Part shown: in pieces, positions 1-52,404 of the stretch
Numbering within the stretch: the first letter of the stretch is position 1
Layout: each line of letters begins with the position of its first letter
Source of the DNA: the human T2T-CHM13v2.0 reference genome, Homo sapiens
Reading direction: 5' to 3' (one strand)
Assembly: GCF_009914755.1 (NCBI RefSeq)
Contig: NC_060935.1
DNA length: 64,000 bases
Made by a program: the position numbers and the translations under genes
Notes under the pieces: model-generated
The model's database searches: none
What the model saw: the letters and a program-made list of their open reading frames with translations, nothing else
What the model was told of the DNA's origin: nothing

Positions 1-804
1 CGGCCAGCCGCCCCGTCCAGGAGGGAGGTGGGGGGGTCAGCCCCCTGCCCGGCCAGCCGCCCCATCAGGGAGGTGAGGGGCACCTCTGCCTGGCCGCCCC
101 TACTGGGAAGTGAGGAGCCCCTCTGCCCGGCCAGCCGCCCGGTCCGCGAGGGAGGTGGGGGGGTCAGCCCCCAGCCCAGCCAGCCGCCCCGTCCGGGAGG
201 TGGGGGGCGCCTCTGCCCGGCCGCCCCTACTGGGAGGTGAGGAGCCCCTCTGCCCGGCCACCACCCCATCTGGGAGGTGTGCCCGGCAGCTCATTGAGAA
301 CGGGCCATGATGACAATGGCGGTTTTGTGGAGTAGAAAGTGGGGAGAGGTGGGGAAAAGAGTGAGAAATCAGATGGTTGCCGTGTTTGTGTAGTAGGAGG
401 TAGACATGGGAGACTTTTCATTTTGTTCTGTACTAAGAAAAATTCTTCTGCCTTGGGATCCTGTTGATCTGTGACCTTACCCCCAACCCTGTGCTCTCTG
501 AAACATGTGCTGTGTCCACTCAGGGTTAAATGGATTAAGGGCGGTGCAAGATGTGCTTTGTTAAACAGATGCTTGAAGGCAGCATGCTCGTTAAGAGTCA
601 TCACCACTCCCTAATCTCAAGTACCCAGGGACACAAACACTGCGGAAGGCCGCAGGGTCCTCCGCCTAGGAAAACCAGAGACCTTTGTTCACTTGTTTAT
701 CTGCTGACCTTCCCTCCACTATTGTCCTGTGACCCTGCCAAATCCCCCTCTGTGAGAAACACCCAAGAATGATCAATAAAAAATAAATAAATTAAAAAAA
801 AAAA
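1..804 (+). mobile_element. SVA retrotransposon, 3' part (VNTR + SINE-R + poly-A)
   Basis: GC-rich VNTR units (CCGGCCAGCCGCCCCGTCCGGGAGG; GAGGAGCCCCTCTGCCCGG) to about 290, HERV-K-derived SINE-R, AATAAA at 775-780 and an A-tail. Confidence 0.97.
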
Positions 805-1970
805 GCTACAAGAGTATGTTATAACTCAATGCAAGGAAGCTAAAAATCATAATAAAACATTGCAAGAGCTGACAGACAAAATAGACACTACAAGAATTTC
901 ATAATGTAAACACAAGTATTAATAACAAAATAAACCGAGCAGAGGAAAGAATCTTAGAGCTTGAAGACTGGCTTTCTGAAAAAAGACAGGCAGACAAGAA
1001 TAGAGAGAAAAGAATGAAAAGGAATGAACAAAACCTCCAAGAAAATAAGGGATAATGTAGAGACTGGATCTATGACTGATTGATGTACCTGAAAGATATG
1101 GTTGGTTCTATGCAGAGAACAGAACCAATCTGGAAAACATATATCATGGTATCATCCATGAGAACTTCCTCAATATAGTGAGGGAGACCAACATTCAAAT
1201 TCAGGAAATGCAGAGAACTCCAGTAAAATACTCTACAAGAAGATCATCCACAAGACACACAATCATCAGATTCTTCCAACACCAATATGAGGAGAAAAAC
1301 ATATATTAAAGGTAGTGAGAGAGAAAGGCCAAGTCATGTACAAAGGGAAGCCCATCAGACTAACAACAGACCTCTCAGATGAAATACAACAAGCCAGAAG
1401 AGACTGGAGGACAATATTCAATATTCATAAAGAAAAGAAATTTCAAACCAGAATTTTATATCCAGCCAAACTAAGCTTCATAAGTGAAGGAGAAACACGA
1501 TTCTTTTTAGACAAGCAAATGCTGAGGGAATTTGTTACCACCAGACCTGCCTAACAAGAGCTCCTGAAGAAGGCACTAAATATGGACAAGAAAGACCATT
1601 ACCAGCCACTACAAAAACACACTGAAGTACACAAACCAGTGACACTATAAAGCGACCACATAAACAAGTTGACAAAATAACCGGCTAACATGATGATGAC
1701 AGGATCAAATACACACATATCAATATTAATCTTAAATGTAAAAGTGACAAGCTGGATAAGGAACCAAGACCCACCAGTATGCGGTCTTCAAGAGATCCAT
1801 CTCACATACAATGACATACACAGGCTCAAAATAAACAGATGGAGAAAAATCTACCAAACAAATGGTAAACAGAAAAAAGCAGGGGTTGCAATCCTACTGT
1901 CTGGCAAAACAGACTTTAAACCAACAAAGATCAAAATAGACAAAGTAGGGCATTACATAATGATAAAGGG
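805..1970 (+). mobile_element. L1 fragment (ORF1 through ORF2 endonuclease start), host of the SVA
   Basis: ORFs 1315-1554 (YKGKPIRLTTDLS...YPAKLSF) and 1690-2016 (MTGSNTHISILILNV...KKAGVAIL) are L1 ORF1/ORF2 remnants. Confidence 0.9.
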
Positions 1971-5435: not shown

Positions 5436-5555
5436 TTGATGTATGCCATATGGATGAATTTAAACAGTTTCGGCCTTGCAATAATTGGTATACTTCTAAT
5501 TGCATGTGAAATTATACTCTTTTTAACGAAAGATGAAACTATTCAGTGGCCACAT
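5436..5555 (+). pseudogene. MS4A-family TM3 exon of an upstream MS4A (pseudo)gene, possibly MS4A19P
   Basis: ttgtatctattccag|...|gtaagt, 120 nt, phase 0/0, open: LMYAIWMNLNSFGLAIIGILLIACEIILFLTKDETIQWPH. Has the MS4A TM3 pattern MN....GI.L...E and is collinear with exon 52285-52404. Confidence 0.85.
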
Positions 5556-8500
5556 GTAAGTACAAGGTTTTACAATGTTTTTTTCACAGAAACTTACACT
5601 TTAAATTTGTTTGTAAATGAGCAGAGCCTATTTTGGTGTTGGACAAATGCAGAGGTGATCAAAATTAACAATTCACATTTGGCATGACCACAAGTAAGGA
5701 TCCAAACCACTGAACAGACCTTTAAAACTGGGACCAAAACAAACCTCAAGAAATCAAATGGTGTTACATAAAATAAAATAACTAAAATGTAGATTATTGA
5801 GATTCAGATGAAGGATGATGGTAAAGATACAAAAACCTTAAATAAATATAGATATCTCTTCAAAATAAGGATATATTGGAAGTTGGCAGGCTCACTGACA
5901 CAATGTACTAGATACATTCTAGTTATCTGTGTCTCCCCAATCCTTATTCGCAGGGCCCAGAACTTAATAGATATCTAATAAGTGTTTATTGAGTGAATGT
6001 AAATACTTTTTATTTTACTATCCTCTCTGAAAGTATTCCCAGCAAAATACTCCTGAAAATCAGTAATCAGAAATTCTCTGTATGCAATAGGCAGGTTAAG
6101 TCCCAAGTCCCCTGAATATGCTGTAAATTCACCTTTTTTTCACATGGCACTAACCATTTGATTTTAAGGTAAATATTATGGATATGAAAATTGAAATGGA
6201 AAAAAAAGATGAACATATGGTCATTGGCTAAATGTGCATGGGATTCCTAGTTGCTTAAAGTTAGAAACCTATATATACCGGAACGGGGGAGACGATACAC
6301 TAACACTTCAGGATGTCAAAGACCTGATGGAATTAGGACAAAGAAAGGAAGTCCCACTTTTTTCAAATTTTAAAAATGACAGGATAGTTAGGACAGATAT
6401 CTGCAGTTCAGAATTTTTACACTCATAAGCATTATTGGCATTTTGGTCATTTTAGGACTACCCTTAATATTTTATGCCACCAGGTGTATTGCATGCCTTA
6501 TGCAGAAGGAAAGTCTTAAGAATTCTGAGACCTATCAAGCGTACATATCTCTATTTCAAATCCTGCTTATGCTTTATTGATGTGACAGCTCAGTACATAT
6601 CTGGAAGTTTTGTTTTTATAGGCTATAGGAGTAAATAAGAACACTTTAAATACTTGATTGAGTAACTAGCTGGTAGGTCTTGGAGGATATCACTCATATG
6701 CACAAACACAAAAGATATAGAGCAAAGGCCTAAGACATCACAGTATGTTCAAAGGTCAGCCTGCCCTACTCCCTGGAAGTTTATTTTGTCACACATCATG
6801 GGCAGAACCCTATCAAGCAAATTTAATGACAAGGAGGTTGAAGTATGATGGCTTTCCATACCTAAAGCTATTATAGAGGTCAAATAAGAACTAAAGCCCT
6901 ATAGGGGAAAATAGAGTATGAAAAAAACCTCTATATGAGTTTTTTTTATTTCAGTTCCTAAGTTTTTCTTCAACACCAATACTGAAATATGCCATACTAG
7001 AACTCATACTCTACAATCTCAGTTGCTAGCATTGTTTGTACCTAACAGATTCATTCCCAAATGCAAGAAGTCCGAGGATTAGTAAATATGCTATTCTGGC
7101 TGAGGGGTCAGACACAGCAAGCTCTGAGGCCTTTCCTTACGGCAGACCAATTTGGAAATTACAGGATATCAGTTCCTTTCCTCCCAGGAGGCTCTTGGCA
7201 TCTGTGAAAACTTGCCTATATTATTGCCAACAAGAATCTTTGTTTACCAAAAGCTACCAGGATGAGCAGGCTTTCTCAGGCATTCCACAACTATTCTTCT
7301 GAAGAAACCACTCAAGTGTTCAGGAAAGAATCAGAAAATATCTGCCCAAGTAACTTTCTAAATCTTTCAAGACAGTGAAATGGCTAGCAGCTTCTCTTGC
7401 TAACAACAGGTTCAATTTCTCTTCTTTCTCCACAAGCACACAGCTACATTTATTTTATAATAAATGTATTTGTATAATTATTGACCAAAGATAAATATAT
7501 AATTAATTATAAATTACTTACTTTTTAATATTCTATTTCATTTCACATAGGATTTGAAAGAGCTTAACGAATACCTGTAGTAATATAATTAAAATATATC
7601 TAAAATGAGTAAATACTTTAAAAATGTTTATTAGCATAAATTGTTATAAGTATATAGTATAGTGATATATGTGAGGAGACTTCAAAAAGTTTGTGGAAAA
7701 TGGAGTTAAAAGATGAAAAATATGAACTTTATTTCTCAACATAAGATCCACCAAGGTCAAGACACTTCTGTAAGCAATACCAGCCATTTAGTCCATCTCT
7801 AAAGGACTGAGGGTCCTGGTATTTTAACCATGTCGGTAAAGCATTTTCTTACATTATTAACTGAAGAGAAATGGGTGTCCTTTAAAGATTTTTTAAGATT
7901 AGAAAACAAAATAAATCCAAGGGAGCCAAATCAGGACTGCGAGGTGGATGCCTAATGATTCCCCATCCAAGTTCTCACAAAATTGCCCTTGTTTGCCGAG
8001 AGGAACGAGCAGAAGCATTGTTGTGGTGGAGAAGGGCTCTCTGGTGAAACCTTCCCAAGCATTTTTCTGCTAAAACTTTAGCTAACTTTCTCAAAACACT
8101 CTTATAATAAGCAGGTGTTACTGTTCCTTGGCCCTCCAGAAAGTCAACAAGCAAAATGCCTTGAGCATACCAAAGAACTGTTACCATAATATTTGGTTTT
8201 GACTGATTCAAACTTGCTATGACTGGACCACTTCCACCTCTTGGTAGCCATTACTTTGACTGTGCATTGTCTTCAGGATCATACTGGAAAAGCCATGTTT
8301 CACCCCCTATTAAAATTATTCCAAGAAATGCTTCAGGATCTTGATTCCTCTTGTTTAAAATTTTTATTGAAAGTTCTTCTTTTGTATGCAGCTGATCTAG
8401 GCACAACAGTTTGGGGACCTATCAAGCGGAAAGTTTGCTCAACTTTAATTTTTCAGCCAGAATTGTGTAAGCAGAACCAATTGAGATATCTATGGTGCTG

Positions 8501-11500
8501 GCTATTGTTCCAACTGTTAATCATGGGTCCTCTTCAATTAGGGCATGAACAAGATGAACTTTTTTTTCTTGTTAATTGATGTGGATGGTCTGCATGTTTC
8601 ATCTTCAACATCGTCTCATCACTTCTTAAAACAAGTTATCTATTTTTTGTTTGTTTTTCAAAATGATAGATTGGAGTCTTTGTTAGCACATTGCACCCAC
8701 TTGATAAGAGCAATATAGTGTGTAGATTCATGCTATGAACTTTTATCCAAGAAGGAGCACAGGAACTCAACAGAAACACTGAAACAAACTTTGAATACCT
8801 TGAAAGGAGTGGCAGACAGCAACTTGCACTATGAGTCCGTTGGAAAACTATGAGTCTTGAGAACATGAAAGGGAGACAGACTGTCTCCATGATACAAATT
8901 CCCACTTGGGAGCTGTGCAATCCAGGCCATGAGGGAGTGACTTGACCCTACCAGGAGCTGGAGCTAATTTGGTGAGTAGTGGGGAGTATATGAAAAGGAA
9001 TGGCATCAGGATGTGCTTTGCATGAACTCCCAGATGTCAGTGGGGACAGAAAGAAGGCATTCCTGATCCTAACTCACAGGGAATCTTTCAGAAACTTGCC
9101 AGCTAACTCAGGCAGTGGTCATAGGTTGAGAGAAGCTCCAAACTGAGATGTGTGATCTCATCTCAAGTAAGAATGAGATGTAATCTCAATAATCTCAAGG
9201 CCAGAACCAAGAGGCAAGAAGAAAGCATGCTCTTGCTACAGGTCCAAAATTAGGCGCCCCTGTTTTGCAGGTCATATTGGGAAGGATGTGGCTTTCAGGC
9301 CACATCCTTCTGTTTCTGTCTTGGTTGGGAAGTTTTGCATTCTGAGCATGAACTGTCTGGAACTCAGCTGGCTGTTTCAGCTTTCTGCCAGCAGAAGTTT
9401 GTGTATGTGAGACCTACTGTGCCAAAGGCATGGGAGTTGGGTGGGTCTTACTGCCACCTGCTACCCCTTTTCCCCATACAGACACTTTTGTGCAGCAAAA
9501 GTGGTTGTACCCCTCCCCGCATCATTGTCCCAGTGGCCAGGGAGCTGCCCTCTGACCCCCATCAGGGCCACCATTTGTACCCACACTTGAGGAGCTAGAG
9601 CACTGACTTGCCTGATCCAACCCTCACCTGGCTTTGCCCTTCCACTCGCTTTGGTAGCAGAACATGGACAGGAATTTTTGAGAGTTCCATGGGCTCACCC
9701 ATTGCCTAGGATATCTGAGTATTTACCCTGGGTAATATAGACCAAGCATAAATTCCACAGCTGCCACTGCAGCTGGCTCTCTACTGCACGCACCACATCC
9801 TGGCCAGAGGTCAACTGGCCTAGCCCATTACAATATCTGATGGCACAATAACAGCATTCAAGAAGAAAAAGGCTTTTGCATGATCTCAGCTAACACTATT
9901 GACTGCACCACCAAAGCTACTCAGGAGGCCTTGAGCCCATTCACATGCCCAACACATTACTACTACATCTAACAATGGAGAAAGCCACAATGCCAAGGCT
10001 ATTTACAACCAAGGAAATCTTACAGAGTGTAAGCCACTCCCGTGCCACCATCATTAGAGCTGGTACTTGAACCTGCCACTGGGAAACCATAGGATGGGTC
10101 AGCCTGGTCCAGCTCCACTCAACATCACCTCTGGAGCATAAGAGTGGAGTCCAGGCTACTGCACATCTCACAGACCACTCCATAGCCTGAAGCATCCGAG
10201 AGCTTCTCCAGATGGCTGACTAGAGATTATCAGTGACAAATTCTGGGAAGGAAAAACCAAAATTACACTTGGATGATCACAGCGCAAATGGAGTATTAAG
10301 GGGAGAGTGCTGGAGCTTTTTGGAGAGTTCACTGGAAAAATCTATGATACACAAAAAAAGAAAGAAACAAGAAGCTGGTAGAGCTTAAACCCCAAGAGAC
10401 AGAGCATTCTGTGGAAAGTGAATGGAATGCTTTCAGCCTCTGTAGGCCTTGTGGCAGCCTGCTGGTATCCAAACTCAAGGAGAGCTTATTTGGACTTGTA
10501 AGCCCAAGTATTGGATTGGCCTGTGATTTGGGGGCTTCTTAAGGGCATTACACTGGGCTACCAGCTTGTGCATGTTCCTTCCTTTCCCCCTAGACCTGAG
10601 CTATAGAAGCAAGTGCCATACTGGATGTGCAATCATTATGGGACATTGTTCTGCTATGGGACTTTCAACCCTTGTGTCTTCACATCCCCAGATCACTTGC
10701 TGACATTTCCCAGCATCAGCCTGGATTGCGGCAGACCCGCGAGGTGATGGCTAGAGCCAGAGGAGCATCAGGATTCACAGTAGTCTTGCTCTCCAAGACT
10801 GCCACTCCTGGGGGAAGGAGGAGTGTACCACATCAAGGGAGCACTCTGGGGAACAAAAGAAACTAGAATGTGGGCTTTTCTGTGTCCCAGATCTTCCCAC
10901 TGTGGGCAGGAAGCACCTGCACCTCCTTCAACAAAGGCACGGGTGCAGTCTTGGGCTTAGTAGGGGAAGACTGGTTCTGCCCTAGCAGTTGAATAGCCCT
11001 GGTGCTTATAAAGGGACTTTTCATACCTCTCACCATTTTGCATAAAGGGACTTTTTATCTCTCTCACCCACCACTGAAGACACCACCAGAGCTTCTCCCA
11101 TGGGAGCTTGGCAAGGGTGCACCTGTAGAAGGCTTTTATGGAACATTCTGAGGTGACAGCATCACCATAGGAGGTGTGCCCTCTGGGTTCAGGATTGCAT
11201 GAGGAGTGGAGTCCCACTCCCTCTATACAAGAAACATCAGCATTTCTGCAGATGGACGAGGTCCCTGTCTGATCTGAATATCCAGAGTACTAGGACAAGG
11301 GTGTGACAGGGAGTTTGATCACTTTCCTCCTGGCCTGGTACTGGAAATAAAGTGGCTGTTTCCGTCCCCCCACTGCAAAGGCGTCAGTGAATTTCACCAG
11401 GAGCTCCCCCAGCTGCCTCATCAGGGATAGGGCTTTTGCTCACCAATGGGGTATTGAATATACCCACCTGCTTCAGCCACAGCCAATTCTTACCCACAGG

Positions 11501-12332
11501 TGCCTCCTGCTGGCCTGAAGGCTAAACTGCTCAACCCAGTTTAAAAAAAAAAAAATGGAATGCACACCACTGGGGAACAAGATAAGTTTCCTGAGAACTC
11601 TGCCATTCTGACCCCAAAGGAGACAATAAGCCTGCTCATACACCCAGTACATCACTACTATGAGCAACATCTGAGAAAGCTATAATATAAAGATTCTCTA
11701 TAACCAAGGAACTCATACAGTGTCTTTGCCACTGAAAGCACCACCCAGAGCTGAAGTTAGGTCATCATAAACTGTACATTATTGTCACATCCTCAAGGTA
11801 TAAAAAGAAAACTTAGTCCAATCAAAAAATAAATTCAAAAATAATGAAAAGAAATAGTCTATCCAGATGAGAAGAAGCCAGAAAAATAATTCTGGCAATA
11901 TAGAAAAGCAGAACCTTGCAACACCCTGAAAGGATCATATTAACTCTTCAGCAGTGGATCCAAACCAAAATGAAATATTTGAAATACCAGATAAAGAATT
12001 CAAAATATTGATTGTAAATGAGATCCAAGAAAAATTTTAAATCTAACAAAAAGAAATCAAAAATAAATTCAGGATAAGAATGAAAAATTTTCCAAAGAGA
12101 TAAATACTTTTTTAAATAAAACAGAACATCTACAAATGAAAGACTAATTTAGGGAATTACAAAATGCAGTGGAAAGTATTAACAATAAACTGTACCAAGC
12201 AGAAAAAAATCATTTCAGAGCTTGAAGACATGGCTTTTGAATTAATTCAATCATACAAAAATAAATAAACAAAGTTTCCAAAAAATATGGGATTATGCAA
12301 AAGGTCCAAACCTAAGAATCATAGATATTCCT

Positions 12333-12703
<371 letters not shown>

Positions 12704-14527: not shown

Positions 14528-14873
<346 letters not shown>

Positions 14874-15593
14874 TCAGAAATGAAAATAGAGACATTACAA
14901 GTGATTAGACGGAAATACAGAAGATCATCCAAGACTTCTACGAATATTTCTATGCACACAAACTAGAAAATCTAGAGGAAATTGACAATTTCTGGGAAAC
15001 ATGCAATCCCCAAGCTTGAATCAAGAAGAAATAGAAATCCTGAACAAACCAATAATAAGTACTGAGATTGAATCGGTAATTTTAAAAAATCTCCCAACAA
15101 GAACAAAAAAAGAGCCCAGGGCAAGACAGATTCACAGCCAAATTCTACCAGACCTTCAAATAACTGACATACTTAAAATATCCCAAAAAACTAAGAAAAA
15201 GGGAATTCTCTCTTACTCATTCTACAAAGCCGGTAGCACCCTGATACCAAAGCCAGGAAAGGACACAACAAAAAAAGGAAAACTACAGACCTAAATCCCT
15301 GATAAAATTAAATGTGAAAATCCTCAACAAAATACTAGCAAACTGAATCCAACAGCACACCAAAAAATTAATTCACCAAGATCAGGTGGATTTCATCCCA
15401 GGGACACAATGATAGTTTAACATATGCAAGTCAATAAATGTAATTCACCACATAAAAAGAACTTAAAACAAAAACTATATGATAGACTCAAAGGGCACAG
15501 AAAAAGCATTTGATAAAATTCAGCATCTCTTCATGATAAAAAACCCTCAACAAACTAGGCATAGAAGAAACATACCTCAAAATAATAAAAGAG

Positions 15594-15920
<327 letters not shown>

Positions 15921-16838
15921 TTAAATAATAATAAAAGCTATATGTGACAAACCCACAGCCAACATCATACTGAATGGGAAAAAATTAAAAGCATTCCCCT
16001 TCATAACTGGAGCAAGACAAGAATGCCCACTTTCACTACTCCTATTCAACATAGTACTCAAAGTCCTGGCCAGAGCAATCAGGCAAAAGAAAAATAAAAA
16101 AATAAGGCGCATCCAAATTGAAAAAGAGGAAGTCAAATTATTTATCTTTGCTAGTAATATGACCTTATGCCTTAAAAACCTTAAAGACTCCTCCAAAAGA
16201 CTCCCAGATTTGATAAATGAATTCAGTAAAGTCTCAGGTTACAAAATCAACATACACAAATCAGTAGCACTGCTATATACTAATAACAACCAAGCTGAGA
16301 ATCAAATCAGGAACTCAATCCCATTTACAATAACTACAGAAAAAAACACCTAAAAATATACTTAACCAAGGAGTTGAAGGATCTGTACAAGGAGAATTAC
16401 AAAACACTGGTAAAAAGAAATCACAGATGACACAAATGGAAAAACATCCCATGCTCGTAGATTCGAAGAACCAATATTGTGAAAATGACCATACTGTTCA
16501 AAGAAGTGTACAGATTCAATGAAATTCCTATCAAGAAACCAATGTCATTTTTCACAGAATTTACCCCAGTAACAATGACCATTATTGAAAAGTCAAAAAC
16601 CCATAGACGTTGGTGAGGATGCAGTTAAATGGAAATGCTTATGCACTGTTGATGGGACGTAAATTAGAATAACCTCTATGGAAAACAGTATGGAGGTTTC
16701 TCAAAGAACTACAAGTAAGTCTACCATTCAATGCAACAATCCCACTACTGGGTATCTATCCAAAGGAATAGAAGTCATATCAAAAAGTTACCTGTACTTA
16801 TATGTTTATCACAGCACAATTCACAATTGCAAAGATAC

Positions 16839-17257
16839 TGTGATGGTTAATACTGAATGTCAACTTCTTTTGGATAGAAGGATGCAAAGTATTGCGCCTC
16901 AGTGTGTCTGTGAGGGTGTTGCCAAAGGAGATTAACATTTGAGTCAGTGGGCTGGGCACCATCTAATCAGCCAGCGCAGCTCGGATATAAAGCAGGCAGA
17001 AAAACGTGAAAAGGCTAGAGACTGGCTTAGCCTCCCAACCTACATCTTTCTCCCATGCTGGATGCTTCTTGCCCTCGAACATCAGACTCCAAGTTCTTCA
17101 TCTTTGGGATTTGAACTGGCTTCCTTGCTCCTCAGATTGCAGACAGACTATTGTGGGACCTTGTGACCATGCGAGTTAATACTACTTAATAAACTCTCAT
17201 ATATATATATATATAATCCTATTAGTTCTGTGCCTCTAGAGAACCCTGACTAATACA
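16839..17257 (+). mobile_element. MLT2A-like solo LTR (ERVL)
   Basis: TGTGATGGTTAATACTG...GAGAACCCTGACTAATACA, TSD GATAC/GATAT. Confidence 0.88.
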
Positions 17258-17726
17258 GATATGGAATGTACCTAAGTGCCCATCAACTGATGAGTGGATA
17301 AAGAAAATATGGGAGATATGTATATATACACCATGGAATATTTATACACCAGCAATAAAAGAGAACAGAAAGCCAAATATACATGTTCCCACTTATAAAT
17401 GTGGCTAAGTTACGGTTCTCAAGGCCATATAAAGGTCTATAATGGACACTGGAGACTCAGAAGCGGGAGGGTGGAGGGGGAGTGAGGGATGAAAAATCAC
17501 CTATTGGATACAATGTACACTCTTGAAGTGATAGGTACGCTAAAAGCCCAAACATCACCCCTATGTAATTCAGTCATATAAACAAAAACCACTTGTACCC
17601 CTAAATCTATTGAAATTTTAAAATTTGATTTAATTTAAATATAAAAGTGATGCTTTTAAAATCTTTAAAAAAAATTCCATTTGTAAACTGCCTATTTCTC
17701 TGGAGCATTCTCTTCATAAACTTTTT

Positions 17727-18085
<359 letters not shown>

Positions 18086-18361
18086 TAAAGCGTCAATAGT
18101 TTATGAATTCATTAGTCTTCCACCCGGGCTTTGACATCAATTTTATGCTTGTTCTTTCTTCAATTTTAGCAGAATTCATGTTTCTCTGGTAGGGGCTCTT
18201 TTCAAACTGACTTCTTATCCTTCTAAGTGCCTCAAACTAAATCCTGTTAAGACATGTTATAACAATTTTGTGTGAGTTTATTTTGGTGCAAAAATTTTTT
18301 GAAATCCGTGCGTAGTTTTTCCATAGTATGCATTTCCCACAAACTTTTTGAAGACCCCTTG

Positions 18362-18445
18362 TATTAGGTTGAACCATTTGAAATTGCTGATATCAGACCA
18401 TTTTTAATCTACAAAATTGTCAGTATTGTATGATCCAATCCAATG
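18362..18445. mobile_element. MADE2-like mariner MITE abutting the HSMAR2 end
   Basis: TATTAGGTTGAACCATTTGAAATTGC start and a degenerate inverted end. Confidence 0.6.
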
Positions 18446-18801
18446 TATTAGACTATTCCAATATATGCAATTTGGAATATGATCCTTGTGAAATCAAGAG
18501 GAAAATAATAACATAGATATATAGGTTTTAGAATACTATGAATTACCAATATTGACACAGTTTTTGCACTAAGTTTCCTGATAGGCAAAGTGAAAATGAA
18601 ATTCAATCATTATGTGAATAAATTATCTATTAGGCAGAAATGTTTCAGTTCATTATGGATAAAATGATTCCTGTAATAGTACTTTATAACCATTTATTCG
18701 TGTATAGTTCAGTATAATAAGCAGCATATAACAGTATATAACAGTTATATATATACTGTTATATACTTTCCCCCGTTCTATAATTAAAAATTAGAATACA
18801 T

Positions 18802-19186
<385 letters not shown>

Positions 19187-19829
19187 TCACCCAAGAAAAC
19201 TTCCAGGAGTGGTGACAGATTCTCCAAAGTAGACATAATAAGCAAGATGGATGCAAGGAGGAAGCATAGGTTGATAGCGTAATATTTTAAATGCTGACTC
19301 AAAGAAATCATTATTTCATTACTAAGAGTAAAATTAGCGTGAAGTATAAGCAGCCCCATAGCCTAGTCTTCTCTAGATCAATAATAGTTCTAAACATACT
19401 GTACTCTAACTACATTATTTCTGAGTAATTTCTCCTGAATGAACACTTGAAATTTGCATAACCTGCCATTAGAGAGAAGGCATACTTCAATTATCCATAT
19501 TCTTATAAAGTTGAGACTGCATAAACTAATGCCCACTAGGTTAACACGAAATGTTTTAACAACAGCTCAGCCTTCAGTTTTCTAGAAGGTCCAGTTTCCA
19601 AAAAATTATAGCATTCTTTATGCCTAATGTCCTAGCTACAAATAATGATACTGCATAGTTTTTTCACAATATGAATTTTATGAAACATTTTACTGAGATT
19701 ATCTCATTAGATCTGTTAAATCTCTACCCTATTTTTATTTCCTTTATCTCTACACTCTACTCTCAAATATCTCCCTTCATGAGGAACCATTCCTTTGTAT
19801 TTAATATAAATGGTTTTTTAAAACCACTT

Positions 19830-23704
<3,875 letters not shown>

Positions 23705-24149
23705 TCATCTTCTTTCAAAGCAGCAGTGTCAAGCCAGTTGGTAAGATCCACAGCTGCTGTTGAGATCCAAGTGCTGTCTGTGGGAGCTCATTCTGAGCTG
23801 TGCATGGGCATGTGTGGGGTACTATTCAAGGTGGGGTTCCCAGGGTGCTAGGAGAATGTGTTGGCTATTTGGGAAGCCCTCTGACAAGTCATTCTGCAGG
23901 GTTTATGGGCAGGCCTCTTGGCGGAGTTCAAGAGCTGGTTATCCCAGTGGAATATGTTTGTAATTGCAGTGGAATGTGTTTGTAAAACATCTTTGGTTTT
24001 CAAAGTTCTGCAGCATGAGCATATGAGGTACCTGAGCAGGTATCATCTCCACTCTACAAAAGAATAAACTGAGGACCAAAGGATTTAAGTGCAGTGCTGT
24101 ACCCACCACATCTTGCAGAGGATTCTAAGTGGCAAGGAGCTTCTGACAA

Positions 24150-24800
24150 TGATGCTGCTTCTAAGCGGGGGTGTGTCTGGGGTTAGCAGTGGGGCCACCA
24201 CGTGATCAATCCGCCGACAGATCAAGCACAGCCTCTTCCTCCTGGGTGCGCCAGGCCCAAGGACAGAGGATGATGCCCACGCAGCCAGGAAAGAGCGGCA
24301 TCATTGTCAGCCCCTACCCCACCCTCGTCTTGGGAGCCTGCAGGCTCCGCGGTGCCACGGGAGCCCCACCGCACCTCACGTATCCGCGCGAGTCTCTAGC
24401 ACAGCCCCGCTCTTGGGCGTTAGAACCCCGCGAGGGGGGATGAAGGACGCCACCGAGGAAGCAGACCCCACCGGGCTCCCGAGGCTGCCAGGCCCCCCGC
24501 TGAGGGCGCTGCCTGCAGAACCACGCCCCCCTGTCCCTGTGCTAAGAGGGTGACGCGAGTGCCCGAAGCCCTGGCCTGGTTACCATTCGCGACTCCCTCG
24601 TCCTGGGTTCTCCCATTGCCAGGAATGTTTTACTAGTAACCATGGTATAGTTGAGACGATCCACTCTTGTCCTACGCATTTCGGCACAATACAGGCGTCT
24701 AGGAGGCTTACCTGGCATTGCCTGAGAGAATCTTCCATCCATTTAAGTAAGTAAACACCAGCGGGGCTGTTGGCCTTGTGAGTTGTGGCACCGTGAAAAA
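24150..24800 (+). promoter_or_regulatory. CpG-rich promoter-like island with probable non-coding first exon ending at 24746
   Basis: The only non-repeat CpG-dense segment in the window. GC-box CCACGCCC 24521, half-CRE TGACG 24551, X-box-like 24579 and 24636, donor TAA|gtaagt at 24747. Confidence 0.65.
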
Positions 24801-26059
24801 CCAAGGCCTGCAGTTCTCAGCATCTGCCCAATTTGAGCTCCTGTTTGAAACCACTGTTGGGTTTCCCTTCTCTTCCTAATGGTTCAGGTGGCCATAAGAT
24901 ATCCTCTTAAGCTTGAGTGTCAGTTATTTTATAAGATCTCTGTTTATCACCTTGAGATGTTCTGCAGGGTCCCTGAAGTGAATTTCGTGTATTCACATAG
25001 CCTAGATTTTAAGTCGTTGCATTCCAGACTTACCATTCAAATTTGGAGTTTCAGCTTGCTCTTTAGGACAGTAGTAATAAAACTACAATCATGACTACAT
25101 TTATTGCACAATGTTACATACTAGACACTTTTCTAAATTATCTATTAATACTAATTTTATGAATGCCATGAGCTCCTATACTAAGACCTCAAATAGCATG
25201 AAATGAAATCCAGTTTAGCTGTTTGCAAACTGCAGGAACACATAGAAACTTCGTTGTACTTATACATTTATTTGACAGTCACTGAGCTCCAAAAAAAAAA
25301 AAAAAGTACCATGCACAGTGCTTAGAATCTACAGTTACAAAGATGAATATGACAAAAACATACAAAAAAATGACTTATTGGTGGAACTGAAACTGACCAG
25401 AAATGGCTGGAGTATGGTTTGAGAAATTAGCCTGGAAAGGAAGCTGGAGGGCACATCGTGAAAGCCTCTTGTATGTTTGCAGACTATTCTAAAGTCAGTA
25501 GGGAGCCTCTAAAATGGTATGATGATATATGAAGAATTGCTGTGGCTGAGATGTGGGGAATAGGCTGAAGGAGCAATGAAATGAATAATGAATATTAGAG
25601 GACAGATGACCGAATAAGAAATCTTCATAATAGTCCAAGCAAAAAAATGAGCTCCTTGCGAACTGAGCCAGTGATCTTTGTCTACCATTTCTATCTCTAC
25701 ACCCACCCCTCAATATAGTAACAGATTTGGATTTGGAGTTTTCCATGTTTTAATGGGTTGGTTGATTTGGTTCAGCTGGGTTGGACTGGCTTTGGGGGAA
25801 GACTAAAGGGGAGGAAGTTGGAAGGGAGCAGTGAGGTATTCAAGTTTAACAATACTTCAGTTGGATTTCTGGGCACCATTTTAATTCCACTGAGGAATAG
25901 AAGTTTAAATTAGGAATGGGACAAAAGCCAAGTGCAGGATATGGAAAGCTCATGGAGAAGGTTAGAGGAGAGTTCCAATGCAGTGAGCATGTGGGAACCC
26001 AAAAGACTCATTCCTAAGATATAAGACTTATGTCAGTGAAAGTAATCTAAAACGACATG

Positions 26060-26750
26060 GTTAGAGGTGACATCAGTGAAAATGGCACAGTGGGGAACAC
26101 CAAGCAATTAATAAGCTGGAAAAAACTTTCAGAAGCAACATTCTCACAACTCTGAAAATTAACGAAAACTTGCAGCAACCAAGGGATGCTTGATCAAGAA
26201 AACACAAGGAAATGTTGGAAACAGATTTTTGTGACATTTTAATTTATCCTAGTCTCATTTCCCACTCCCCAGCTCGTCAGTGCCCTTGAATAAAACAGCC
26301 TTCATTCTCTGTATAGGTACCCAGTAACAGAGGGAGCAAAGCAAATCTTATCCTCAAAGAACTGCAGCTGCTTGTTAGATCTACCTGGTGGTTCCATAGA
26401 GAAACTGCTCAGAGAACCTGCCTTTACCTCGCCTAAAACAGAACTATCCCGGAGCTCAGGTAAGCAGTGGCATTTGTCAAAAACATGTAAAGGAAAAAAC
26501 ATAATAGTCATTGATTTCTGAGGCAAGGAATAATGGTTGGGACAAATAATAGACTAACTGAAAAGTTTGGGAGAAAAGGCCAGGGAATGAGATGCTTTGA
26601 GTAACAAACTCCCACATATTTCTGATAATCTAGAAGGCCACAGACATGCCCTGGGCTAGACACATGCTCAGAAAAGACCTGAAAACATCCTAAGGTCTCA
26701 CCTTCGGATAATGTTCAGACTCTGCACAAGTAGGAAGTAAAGGATAAGCA
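26060..26750 (+). mobile_element. Old L1M 5' end fragment
   Basis: Resembles the L1M 5' region also seen at about 57.6-58.6 kb. Confidence 0.55.
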
Positions 26751-30838: not shown

Positions 30839-30933
30839 CAAAGGAGTCCATTCATCCTCTATAACTGCTATACAATATCTCTGTTAAAATGCTGAGAAGA
30901 TTTATCCTAAAAGAAGGCACCAAAGCAATGGGG
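30839..30933 (+). pseudogene. MS4A first coding exon (ATG 30889; MLRRFILKEGTKAMG)
   Basis: ttgttctctatatttctctatag| acceptor, upstream in-frame TAA, AAAATG start, GGG|gtaagg donor; resembles the MS4A pre-TM1 'FLKxExKxLG' motif. Confidence 0.85.
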
Positions 30934-35876: not shown

Positions 35877-36020
35877 GCTGTGCAAATAATGATTGGCCTG
35901 ATTCACAGTGCACTGGGAACTCTCTGAATTCATTGGATTTTGCTAAGAGAGGATTCAAGTGGTTCTGGTCCTATCCCTATAATTGCTGTAGTAATTTACT
36001 CATTTTTGTCATTATTTTTT
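35877..36020 (+). pseudogene. MS4A TM1-loop-TM2a exon with premature TGA (35925-35927)
   Basis: ctctctcttctcacag|...|gtgagt, 144 nt: AVQIMIGLIHSALGTL*IHWILLREDSSGSGPIPIIAVVIYSFLSLFF; AxQIMIGLIH..LG is the MS4A TM1 hallmark. Confidence 0.93.
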
Positions 36021-52284: not shown

Positions 52285-52404
52285 CTTACTTTAGCAATTG
52301 TAATGAACAGCATAACTATTTGTGTGACTACACTTGGTATAATTCTATTAAGCATGGAGATTGCAACTTTTGCATTAAATGCAACCACATACAATTGGTC
52401 AAAC
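52285..52404 (+). pseudogene. MS4A TM3/extracellular loop 2 exon with mutated acceptor (AC instead of AG)
   Basis: tttttctttgtatgtctattacAC|...|gtaagt, 120 nt open: LTLAIVMNSITICVTTLGIILLSMEIATFALNATTYNWSN. Confidence 0.92.

What the first reader, a model, noticed from the sequence alone, without database searches (positions are those of the whole stretch)
5436..5555. Second MS4A gene: intact paralogous TM3 exon collinear with 52285-52404
Both exons are 120 nt, phase 0/0, end in gtaagt and align without gaps with 13 of 40 identical residues (L1, A4, I5, M7, N8, G18, I19, L21, E25, I26, F29, T35, W38). This indicates an old same-strand tandem duplication: two neighbouring genes of one MS4A subclade. 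The upstream exons must lie before this window. MS4A19P is the recalled candidate.
Basis: partly seen in the sequence, partly recalled or inferred. Interest (0 to 1): 0.7.

Follow-up and report, generated by a model that had tools for sequence, protein, structure and literature searches.

The report
Two lost MS4A genes inside LINC00301
This exon is a leftover of a membrane-protein gene that is predicted to be whole in orangutan and other mammals but lacks three of its five coding exons in this human genome, likely in part through a jumping-element insertion, and its remains are spliced with those of a second broken neighbour gene into the RNA called LINC00301.

Summary
The paralogy is real (13/40 aa; best of 127,756 frames), but the gene is neither intact nor MS4A19P, which has its own such exon upstream. 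5436-5555 is the third-helix exon of an unnamed MS4A gene (copy 2). Predicted whole orthologues exist in orangutan (53/56 aa identical), macaque, tree shrew, squirrel, carnivores, bat and xenarthrans. In human only exons A and D survive; B, C and E were not found. A young SVA with no target-site duplication sits right after exon A, a likely insertion-mediated deletion of B and C. The 52285 exon belongs to a second gene (copy 3), 177/185 identical to a predicted orangutan protein but with a stop codon and an AC acceptor. Five of LINC00301's seven exons are coding relics of these two genes. MS4A19P lacks exon A. So three adjacent MS4A genes are broken in human. Timing against chimpanzee and gorilla could not be tested. 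My literature searches found no report of this.

The parts
5436..5555 (+). Copy 2 exon D (third helix), open frame, AG/GT intact; an exon of LINC00301. Its only other surviving coding exon, A, lies before the window at -1844..-1797 (chr11:60572156-60572203)
   Evidence: Exon D 37/40 aa and exon A 16/16 aa identical to orangutan P0004; splice sites; chain A + D + 26317 exon reproduces the C11orf64 record P0003 letter for letter
1..804 (+). In-window part of an SVA retrotransposon that begins at -1574 (hexamer, Alu-like part, VNTR, 3' part, poly-A), 222 nt after the exon A donor, no target-site duplication; likely marks the deletion of exons B and C
   Evidence: 99% identical to 6 other loci over 491 nt; element type recognised from its anatomy (recalled)
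805..1970 (+). Old L1 fragment that starts at the first base after the SVA poly-A; the SVA 5' flank shows no L1 match
   Evidence: blastn of both flanks against the held region; L1 identity recalled from sequence
23937..24496 (+). CpG-rich block 92.5% identical to -7664..-7108, the LINC00301 start region; likely promoter of copy 3, likely homogenised by gene conversion
   Evidence: only these 2 places in the genome
26317..26459 (+). LINC00301 exon, not MS4A-like; likely a 5' untranslated exon of copy 3; also ends the siamang model P0011
30839..30933 (+). Copy 3 exon A (start codon at 30889); a LINC00301 exon
   Evidence: 14/15 aa identical to orangutan P0164
35877..36020 (+). Copy 3 exon B, with an in-frame TGA at 35925-35927; skipped by the LINC00301 transcript
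   Evidence: 46/48 to P0164
37872..37925 (+). Copy 3 exon C; a LINC00301 exon
   Evidence: 18/18 to P0164
52285..52404 (+).
   Evidence: 39/40 to P0164
57059..57179 (+). Copy 3 exon E (fourth helix); skipped by LINC00301. Copy 3's last coding exon F lies just past the window at 64070-64309 and is the inferred last exon of LINC00301
   Evidence: Exon E 37/40 to P0164; exon F

Best explanation
The exon is one of two surviving coding exons of an unnamed MS4A gene that is broken in this human genome and predicted to be whole in orangutan and other placental mammals, and it is likely kept in an RNA only because the old promoter and splice sites still work. Shown: the cluster runs MS4A13, MS4A19P, copy 2, copy 3, MS4A8 on one strand; copy 2 keeps exons A and D and lacks B, C, E; copy 3 keeps all six exons but has a stop in B and an AC acceptor at D; MS4A19P lacks exon A; five of seven LINC00301 exons are coding relics (A and D of copy 2; A, C, F of copy 3). 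Inferred mechanism: a young SVA inserted 222 nt after exon A and likely removed the segment with exons B and C as it integrated (about 0.6); a separate deletion removed exon E and likely the gene's 3' end, so transcription would run on into copy 3 and splice together whichever exons still have working sites (about 0.7). The only long frame, the 95-residue C11orf64, has one hydrophobic segment and stops 172 nt before the last junction, so it is predicted to be degraded by nonsense-mediated decay. The ancestral protein was likely a four-helix membrane protein of spermatids or sperm, like MS4A13 (about 0.65).
For: Orthologues: P0004 (orangutan, 162 aa, Pfam CD20 56 bits against cut-off 27.9) is 53/56 identical over exons A and D; 9 proteins passed of 83 candidates, among them macaque, armadillo, jackal, bat, tamandua, siamang; tree shrew, stoat and ground squirrel. 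Tree: human A+D sits in a 10-row clade with these at 100/99; copy 3 in a separate 12-row clade at 100/99; stoat has one protein in each. Absence of B, C, E: exhaustive scans of 214 kb on both strands find only paralogues' exons; 0 of 15 ten-residue tiles lying wholly in B, C or E has a match of 7 or more identities at copy 2, while 15 of 18 tiles of the copy 3 protein hit their exons at 8-10 of 10; genome-wide searches see the 16-residue exon A and the 29%-identical MS4A19P exon B but no close B or E. SVA: best duplication candidate 6 nt with a mismatch, whereas a second SVA 112 kb upstream shows a 15-nt duplication; flanks belong to different sequence classes; 6 copies at 99% of 40 scored from 1,872 candidates. 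Fold: four helices, pLDDT 71.7; best PDB match an Fc-epsilon-RI chain, E 8e-4, TM 0.71, CD20 at rank 4. Expression: LINC00301 called testis-specific in a review passage (PMC10116801); MS4A13 enriched in spermatids (PMC7436996 supplements).
Against: No ape or monkey DNA was available, so deletions are inferred from absence against protein records and no breakpoint is mapped. All orthologues are computer-predicted models. The orangutan copy 2 and copy 3 proteins carry the same name as isoforms X2 and X1, so they may be annotated as one locus. The siamang model ends in the 26317 exon without D and E, so read-through into that exon may predate the human lesions and the gene may be damaged in gibbons too. 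The SVA does not explain the loss of exon E, and the order of the two events is unknown. The list of 13 human-specific SVA insertion-mediated deletions in PMC3362811 has none on chr11. Human copy 2 shows no excess of amino-acid changes (1 human, 1 orangutan, 1 unresolved), and the excess in copy 3 is not significant (5 against 1, p 0.11). Hydropathy found 3, not 4, segments over threshold in P0004. Boundaries of LINC00301 exons 1, 2 and 7 are inferred, and sum to 851 nt against 864 stated in PMC7466809.
Confidence: 0.88

Rival explanations
1. The exon belongs to MS4A19P, or to an intact MS4A gene whose other exons lie before the window.
For: Open frame and intact splice sites; MS4A19P ends 20 kb upstream on the same strand (hub annotation).
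Against: MS4A19P already has exons B, C, D, E at -44748, -33813, -16981, -14520; the copy 2 clade excludes it at 100/99; no own exons B, C, E exist between -1797 and 30839.
Confidence: 0.02
2. The SVA is a bystander: exons B, C and E were lost earlier by unrelated deletions, perhaps in the ancestor of African apes, and the SVA entered a dead gene.
For: Exon E loss needs a second event anyway; no chr11 locus among 13 listed human-specific SVA-mediated deletions; copy 3 carries 5-7 human-branch changes against about 6.5 expected if neutral since the orangutan split, using assumed rates, which hints that losses here can be old.
Against: No target-site duplication and unlike flanks on a young element, where the older control SVA keeps a 15-nt duplication.
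Confidence: 0.35
3. The A + D + 26317 frame (C11orf64, 95 residues) is translated into a functional single-pass microprotein that keeps exon D under selection.
For: A protein record exists; exon D stays open with 37/40 identity; the start codon is the ancestral one.
Against: About 2 changes are expected in 56 codons even with no selection (assumed rates), so openness is uninformative; helix 3 is spliced out of its context; the stop is 172 nt before the last junction; RefSeq classes the transcript as non-coding.
Confidence: 0.08
4. The deletion is polymorphic or special to this assembly, and some people carry a whole copy 2 gene.
For: Only one human genome was examined; the SVA is young.
Against: The RefSeq transcript and an older human protein record both join exon A directly to D (hub annotation); two separate deletions would have to be absent together.
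Confidence: 0.04

Closest known systems
MS4A (CD20-like) family, Pfam PF04103; nearest named members MS4A13 and MS4A19P
   Same: Same 11q12 cluster and strand, same phase-0 exon series, short N-terminus as described for MS4A13 (PMC2826416 passage); orthologue matches PF04103 and the Fc-epsilon-RI/CD20 fold.
   Different: A separate orthologue group with no human gene symbol; other species' records are named only 'MS4A8-like', 'MS4A12-like' or 'CD20-like'; the human copy cannot encode four helices.
lncRNAs that are fossils of lost protein-coding genes (PMC5577775; PMC10195156)
   Same: A spliced, tissue-restricted non-coding RNA that reuses the promoter and exons of a lost gene.
   Different: Here one RNA is stitched from two different lost paralogues, and the loss is after the orangutan split. 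LINC00301, C11orf64 and Ms4a gave no hit in the supplements held for either paper.
SVA insertion-mediated deletion, e.g. two exons of tMDC II (PMC3362811)
   Same: Young SVA without target-site duplication where two exons are missing; likely a sperm-related gene as well.
   Different: That study compared chimpanzee DNA; I could not. This locus is not in its Table 2.
Mouse testis genes 1700025F22Rik and 1700017D01Rik (recalled as Ms4a19 and Ms4a20)
   Same: Testis-specific; recalled as lying in the matching part of the mouse cluster.
   Different: Which, if either, is the orthologue of copy 2 or copy 3 was not tested; no named mouse sequence was returned.

Membership tests
MS4A / CD20-like (ancestral gene, tested on orthologue) | Match to Pfam PF04103 above cut-off | tested here: met
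   P0004 56 bits against 27.9. The human exon alone and the human 95-residue frame give no match.
MS4A / CD20-like (ancestral gene, tested on orthologue) | Four membrane helices with the CD20 / Fc-epsilon-RI-beta fold | tested here: met
   Model with four long helices, pLDDT 71.7, pTM 0.61; top match 8k7t_B, TM 0.71 (that chain B is the beta subunit is recalled). Hydropathy alone passed 3 segments.
MS4A / CD20-like (ancestral gene, tested on orthologue) | Position in the 11q12 cluster, shared phase-0 exon series, nesting among MS4A proteins | tested here: met
Functional human MS4A gene | Complete four-helix reading frame in the human genome | tested here: not met
   Exons B, C, E absent; the remaining frame has one hydrophobic segment.
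MS4A19P | Being the third-helix exon of that gene | tested here: not met
   MS4A19P has its own at -16981; separate clades.
Unitary pseudogene | Disabling lesions and no working copy elsewhere in the genome | tested here: met
   genome-wide, best candidates only; region, exhaustive
Unitary pseudogene | Working orthologue at the same position in relatives | tested here: inconclusive
   Whole predicted frames in many mammals; position supported only indirectly (siamang model shares the 26317 exon; orangutan X1 and X2 share a name and contig length); no expression or DNA seen.
SVA insertion-mediated deletion | No target-site duplication; flanks not continuous | tested here: met
   with one control SVA that has a 15-nt duplication
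SVA insertion-mediated deletion | Pre-insertion allele in an ape holds extra sequence exactly at the SVA site | not testable with these tools
   No ape DNA on offer (no relatives held).
SVA subfamily D/E/F | Diagnostic positions against subfamily consensus | not tested
   No consensus on hand; only youth shown by 99% identity to 6 loci.

The most novel reading that the evidence does not exclude
Three adjacent sperm-type MS4A genes conserved across placental mammals were all lost on the human line after the orangutan split, copy 2 by a human-specific SVA insertion that deleted two exons, and these losses created LINC00301, a cancer-linked and azoospermia-marker RNA, as a recent two-gene chimera whose exon chain does not exist in other mammals.
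Probability: 0.3. Interest if true: 0.72.

Novelty: new member of a known kind. Interest (0 to 1): 0.52.

Why it matters
It adds two unannotated gene losses, and a lesion for MS4A19P, to the list of genes lost on the way to humans, in a likely sperm-membrane subfamily. It gives LINC00301, studied as a lung-cancer regulator (PMC7466809) and used in a sperm-retrieval marker panel (PMC10116801), a concrete and recent origin, which bears on how its reported functions and any animal model should be read. It offers a candidate for a rarely documented event, exon deletion by SVA insertion, that one alignment of ape genomes can settle. The mechanisms themselves are all known kinds.

Tried and rejected
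Pfam on the two bare exons gave nothing useful (one weak hit, E 0.47). DNA search of the exon found only itself, and the Pfam genome scan missed both exons. Nucleotide alignments of paralogue exons found copy 3 exon E but no copy 2 exon B, C or E; one flagged match at 19805 was AT-rich noise without a splice site. A short E-like word at about 6955-7030 behind an acceptor-like tract was rejected: it did not rank in the scans. No junction for the exon E loss could be seen by reading 5801-12400 and 14800-26600. Sister SVA copies could not be read, so the duplication control rests on one element, and the SVA age on identity and bit scores only. The mouse orthologue was not identified. Dating by amino-acid changes was uninformative. 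No complex prediction was run. Literature: 10 searches found no paper linking LINC00301 or C11orf64 to MS4A genes; the library lacks most subscription papers, and GENCODE, Ensembl and HGNC records could not be checked.

Full report
Coordinates are window places; negative places lie upstream (chr11 position = 60,574,000 + place) and come from 15 stretches fetched, which with the window give 214 kb.

1. Observation. The two 120-nt stretches, their frames, GTAAGT donors and the 13 identities are as reported. The match is the best of 127,756 six-frame windows and was reached by 0 of 100,000 shuffles. The exon at 5436 has an AG acceptor and is an annotated LINC00301 exon; the one at 52285 has AC.

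2. Anatomy. Known MS4A genes in this genome share an exon series: A ending in a KxxG-like word, B starting xIQI, a 54-57-nt C starting FIxSG, D with helix 3, E with helix 4. Scanning the region shows four related units between MS4A12 and MS4A8: MS4A13; MS4A19P with open exons B (-44748), C (-33813), D (-16981) and E (-14520); copy 2 with A (-1844..-1797) and D (5436); copy 3 with A (30839), B (35877), C (37872), D (52285), E (57059) and F (64070). So the finding's exon is not part of MS4A19P.

3. Orthologues. The exon peptide retrieved 3 proteins of 9 candidates: human C11orf64 (95 aa), an orangutan 162-aa protein with Pfam CD20, and an unnamed read-through frame. The orangutan protein retrieved 9 of 83 candidates, including macaque, armadillo, jackal, bat, tamandua and siamang. 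A profile search gave 395 proteins at E up to 0.001, of which 150 were listed; a mixed profile gave 43 of 2,997 candidates, most with names, among them an orangutan 185-aa protein for copy 3. Human copy 2 is 53/56 identical to orangutan over A and D; human copy 3 is 177/185 identical. Trees on 45 and 35 hand-picked rows (five human rows each, the rest from 158 and 188 proteins held; fragments, fused models and most distant paralogues left out) put human A+D in a clade with orangutan, macaque, tree shrew, squirrel, carnivores, bat and xenarthrans (99/98 and 100/99), copy 3 in its own clade (100/99), and both with MS4A19P apart from MS4A13 (98/96, 97/96); the order among the three is unresolved. 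Stoat has one protein in each clade and copy 2 reaches armadillo, so the duplication predates the placental radiation (inference). The orangutan copy 2 model folds into four helices and best matches an Fc-epsilon-RI chain, with CD20 at rank 4; the Atlas names MS4A clusters first.

4. What is broken. Copy 2: exons B, C and E are absent from the region in exhaustive scans and from genome-wide searches sensitive enough to see the 16-residue exon A. At the divergence seen in A and D they could not have decayed beyond recognition, so they are deleted (inference). Copy 3: a TGA in exon B and the AC acceptor of exon D. MS4A19P: exon A not found with three orthologue queries in the region or one genome-wide.

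5. Mechanism. An SVA runs from -1574 to 804, 222 nt after the exon A donor. It has no target-site duplication; its 3' flank starts inside an L1 and its 5' flank has no L1 match; an older SVA 112 kb upstream keeps a 15-nt duplication. Its 3' part is 99% identical to 6 other loci, so it is young; whether it postdates the chimpanzee split is open. This fits insertion-mediated deletion as described in PMC3362811, where such an event removed two exons of tMDC II; that paper lists no chr11 case. I put the SVA step at about 0.6. Exon E needs a second deletion whose edges I could not find. LINC00301 is then best read as read-through from the copy 2 promoter: exon 1, copy 2 A, copy 2 D, the 26317 exon, copy 3 A, C and F. 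This chain has 851 nt and reproduces the C11orf64 record exactly; its stop lies 172 nt before the last junction, which predicts nonsense-mediated decay by the usual rule (rule recalled). The siamang model also uses the 26317 exon, so some read-through may be older than the human lesions. A 560-nt CpG-rich block before each gene is 92.5% identical and occurs only at these two places, far closer than the coding exons (57/120 nt), which suggests gene conversion between the two promoters (inference).

6. Likely function. LINC00301 is called testis-specific in a review (PMC10116801, passages) and listed in a table of a spermatogenesis study (PMC4750114, one passage); MS4A13 is spermatid-enriched, and two mouse genes recalled as neighbours are testis-specific (PMC7436996, 12 of 15 supplement files searched; PMC4111849, passages; PMC11663944, passages). 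The ancestral protein was likely a four-helix spermatid or sperm membrane protein; nothing here tests that.

7. Against this reading. No ape DNA; all orthologues are predicted models; the two orangutan proteins share one name as isoforms; amino-acid change counts do not date either loss; one human genome only.

8. What is in print. Ten searches found no link between LINC00301 and MS4A genes. Seen: PMC7466809 passages, no mention of MS4A; PMC2826416 passages; PMC3362811 parts 1-3 of 4 and a word search of its supplement; PMC10195156 passages and 1 supplement file; PMC7555810, 1 supplement file only; PMC5577775, 4 supplement files only; PMC2864566 main-text word search; PMC8997352 passages. Lists keyed by coordinates or ids, supplements not held, subscription papers and GENCODE or HGNC records could already hold these loci.

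9. Verdict. A real relic, new as an annotation and as an origin for LINC00301, built from known kinds of event. Interest 0.52.

Noticed in passing
window 23937-24496 and -7664..-7108 (L043): 560-nt CpG-rich blocks before copies 2 and 3 are 92.5% identical and unique to these two places, although the genes split before the placental radiation; likely promoter gene conversion.
   Followed up: partly
MS4A19P, -44748..-14410 (L039-L042): Exons B, C, D and E are open with normal splice sites; only exon A was not found, which likely explains the pseudogene status. An unnamed close relative (P0035) has exon A.
   Followed up: partly
P0011 (siamang model) against window 26317-26459: The model joins exons A, B, C to the non-MS4A exon and lacks D and E; possible independent damage or read-through in gibbons.
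   Followed up: no
P0075 against 64070-64309 (L044): An unnamed copy 3 relative skips exon E and reads exon F in another frame that resembles the human sequence, so exon F is likely conserved in DNA.
   Followed up: no
L032, about -113240..-111640: Older full-length SVA between MS4A12 and MS4A13 with a 15-nt target-site duplication, about 80% identical to the one in copy 2.
   Followed up: partly
window about 7670-8650 and 18060-18360: A mariner-like element (recalled from sequence) split by an L1 of about 9 kb that carries Alu and LTR-like insertions.
   Followed up: no
P0015, P0016: Unnamed library proteins fuse exons of neighbouring paralogues (MS4A13 with MS4A19-type; MS4A19-type with copy 2), a sign that gene models in this cluster are often mis-joined.
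   Followed up: no
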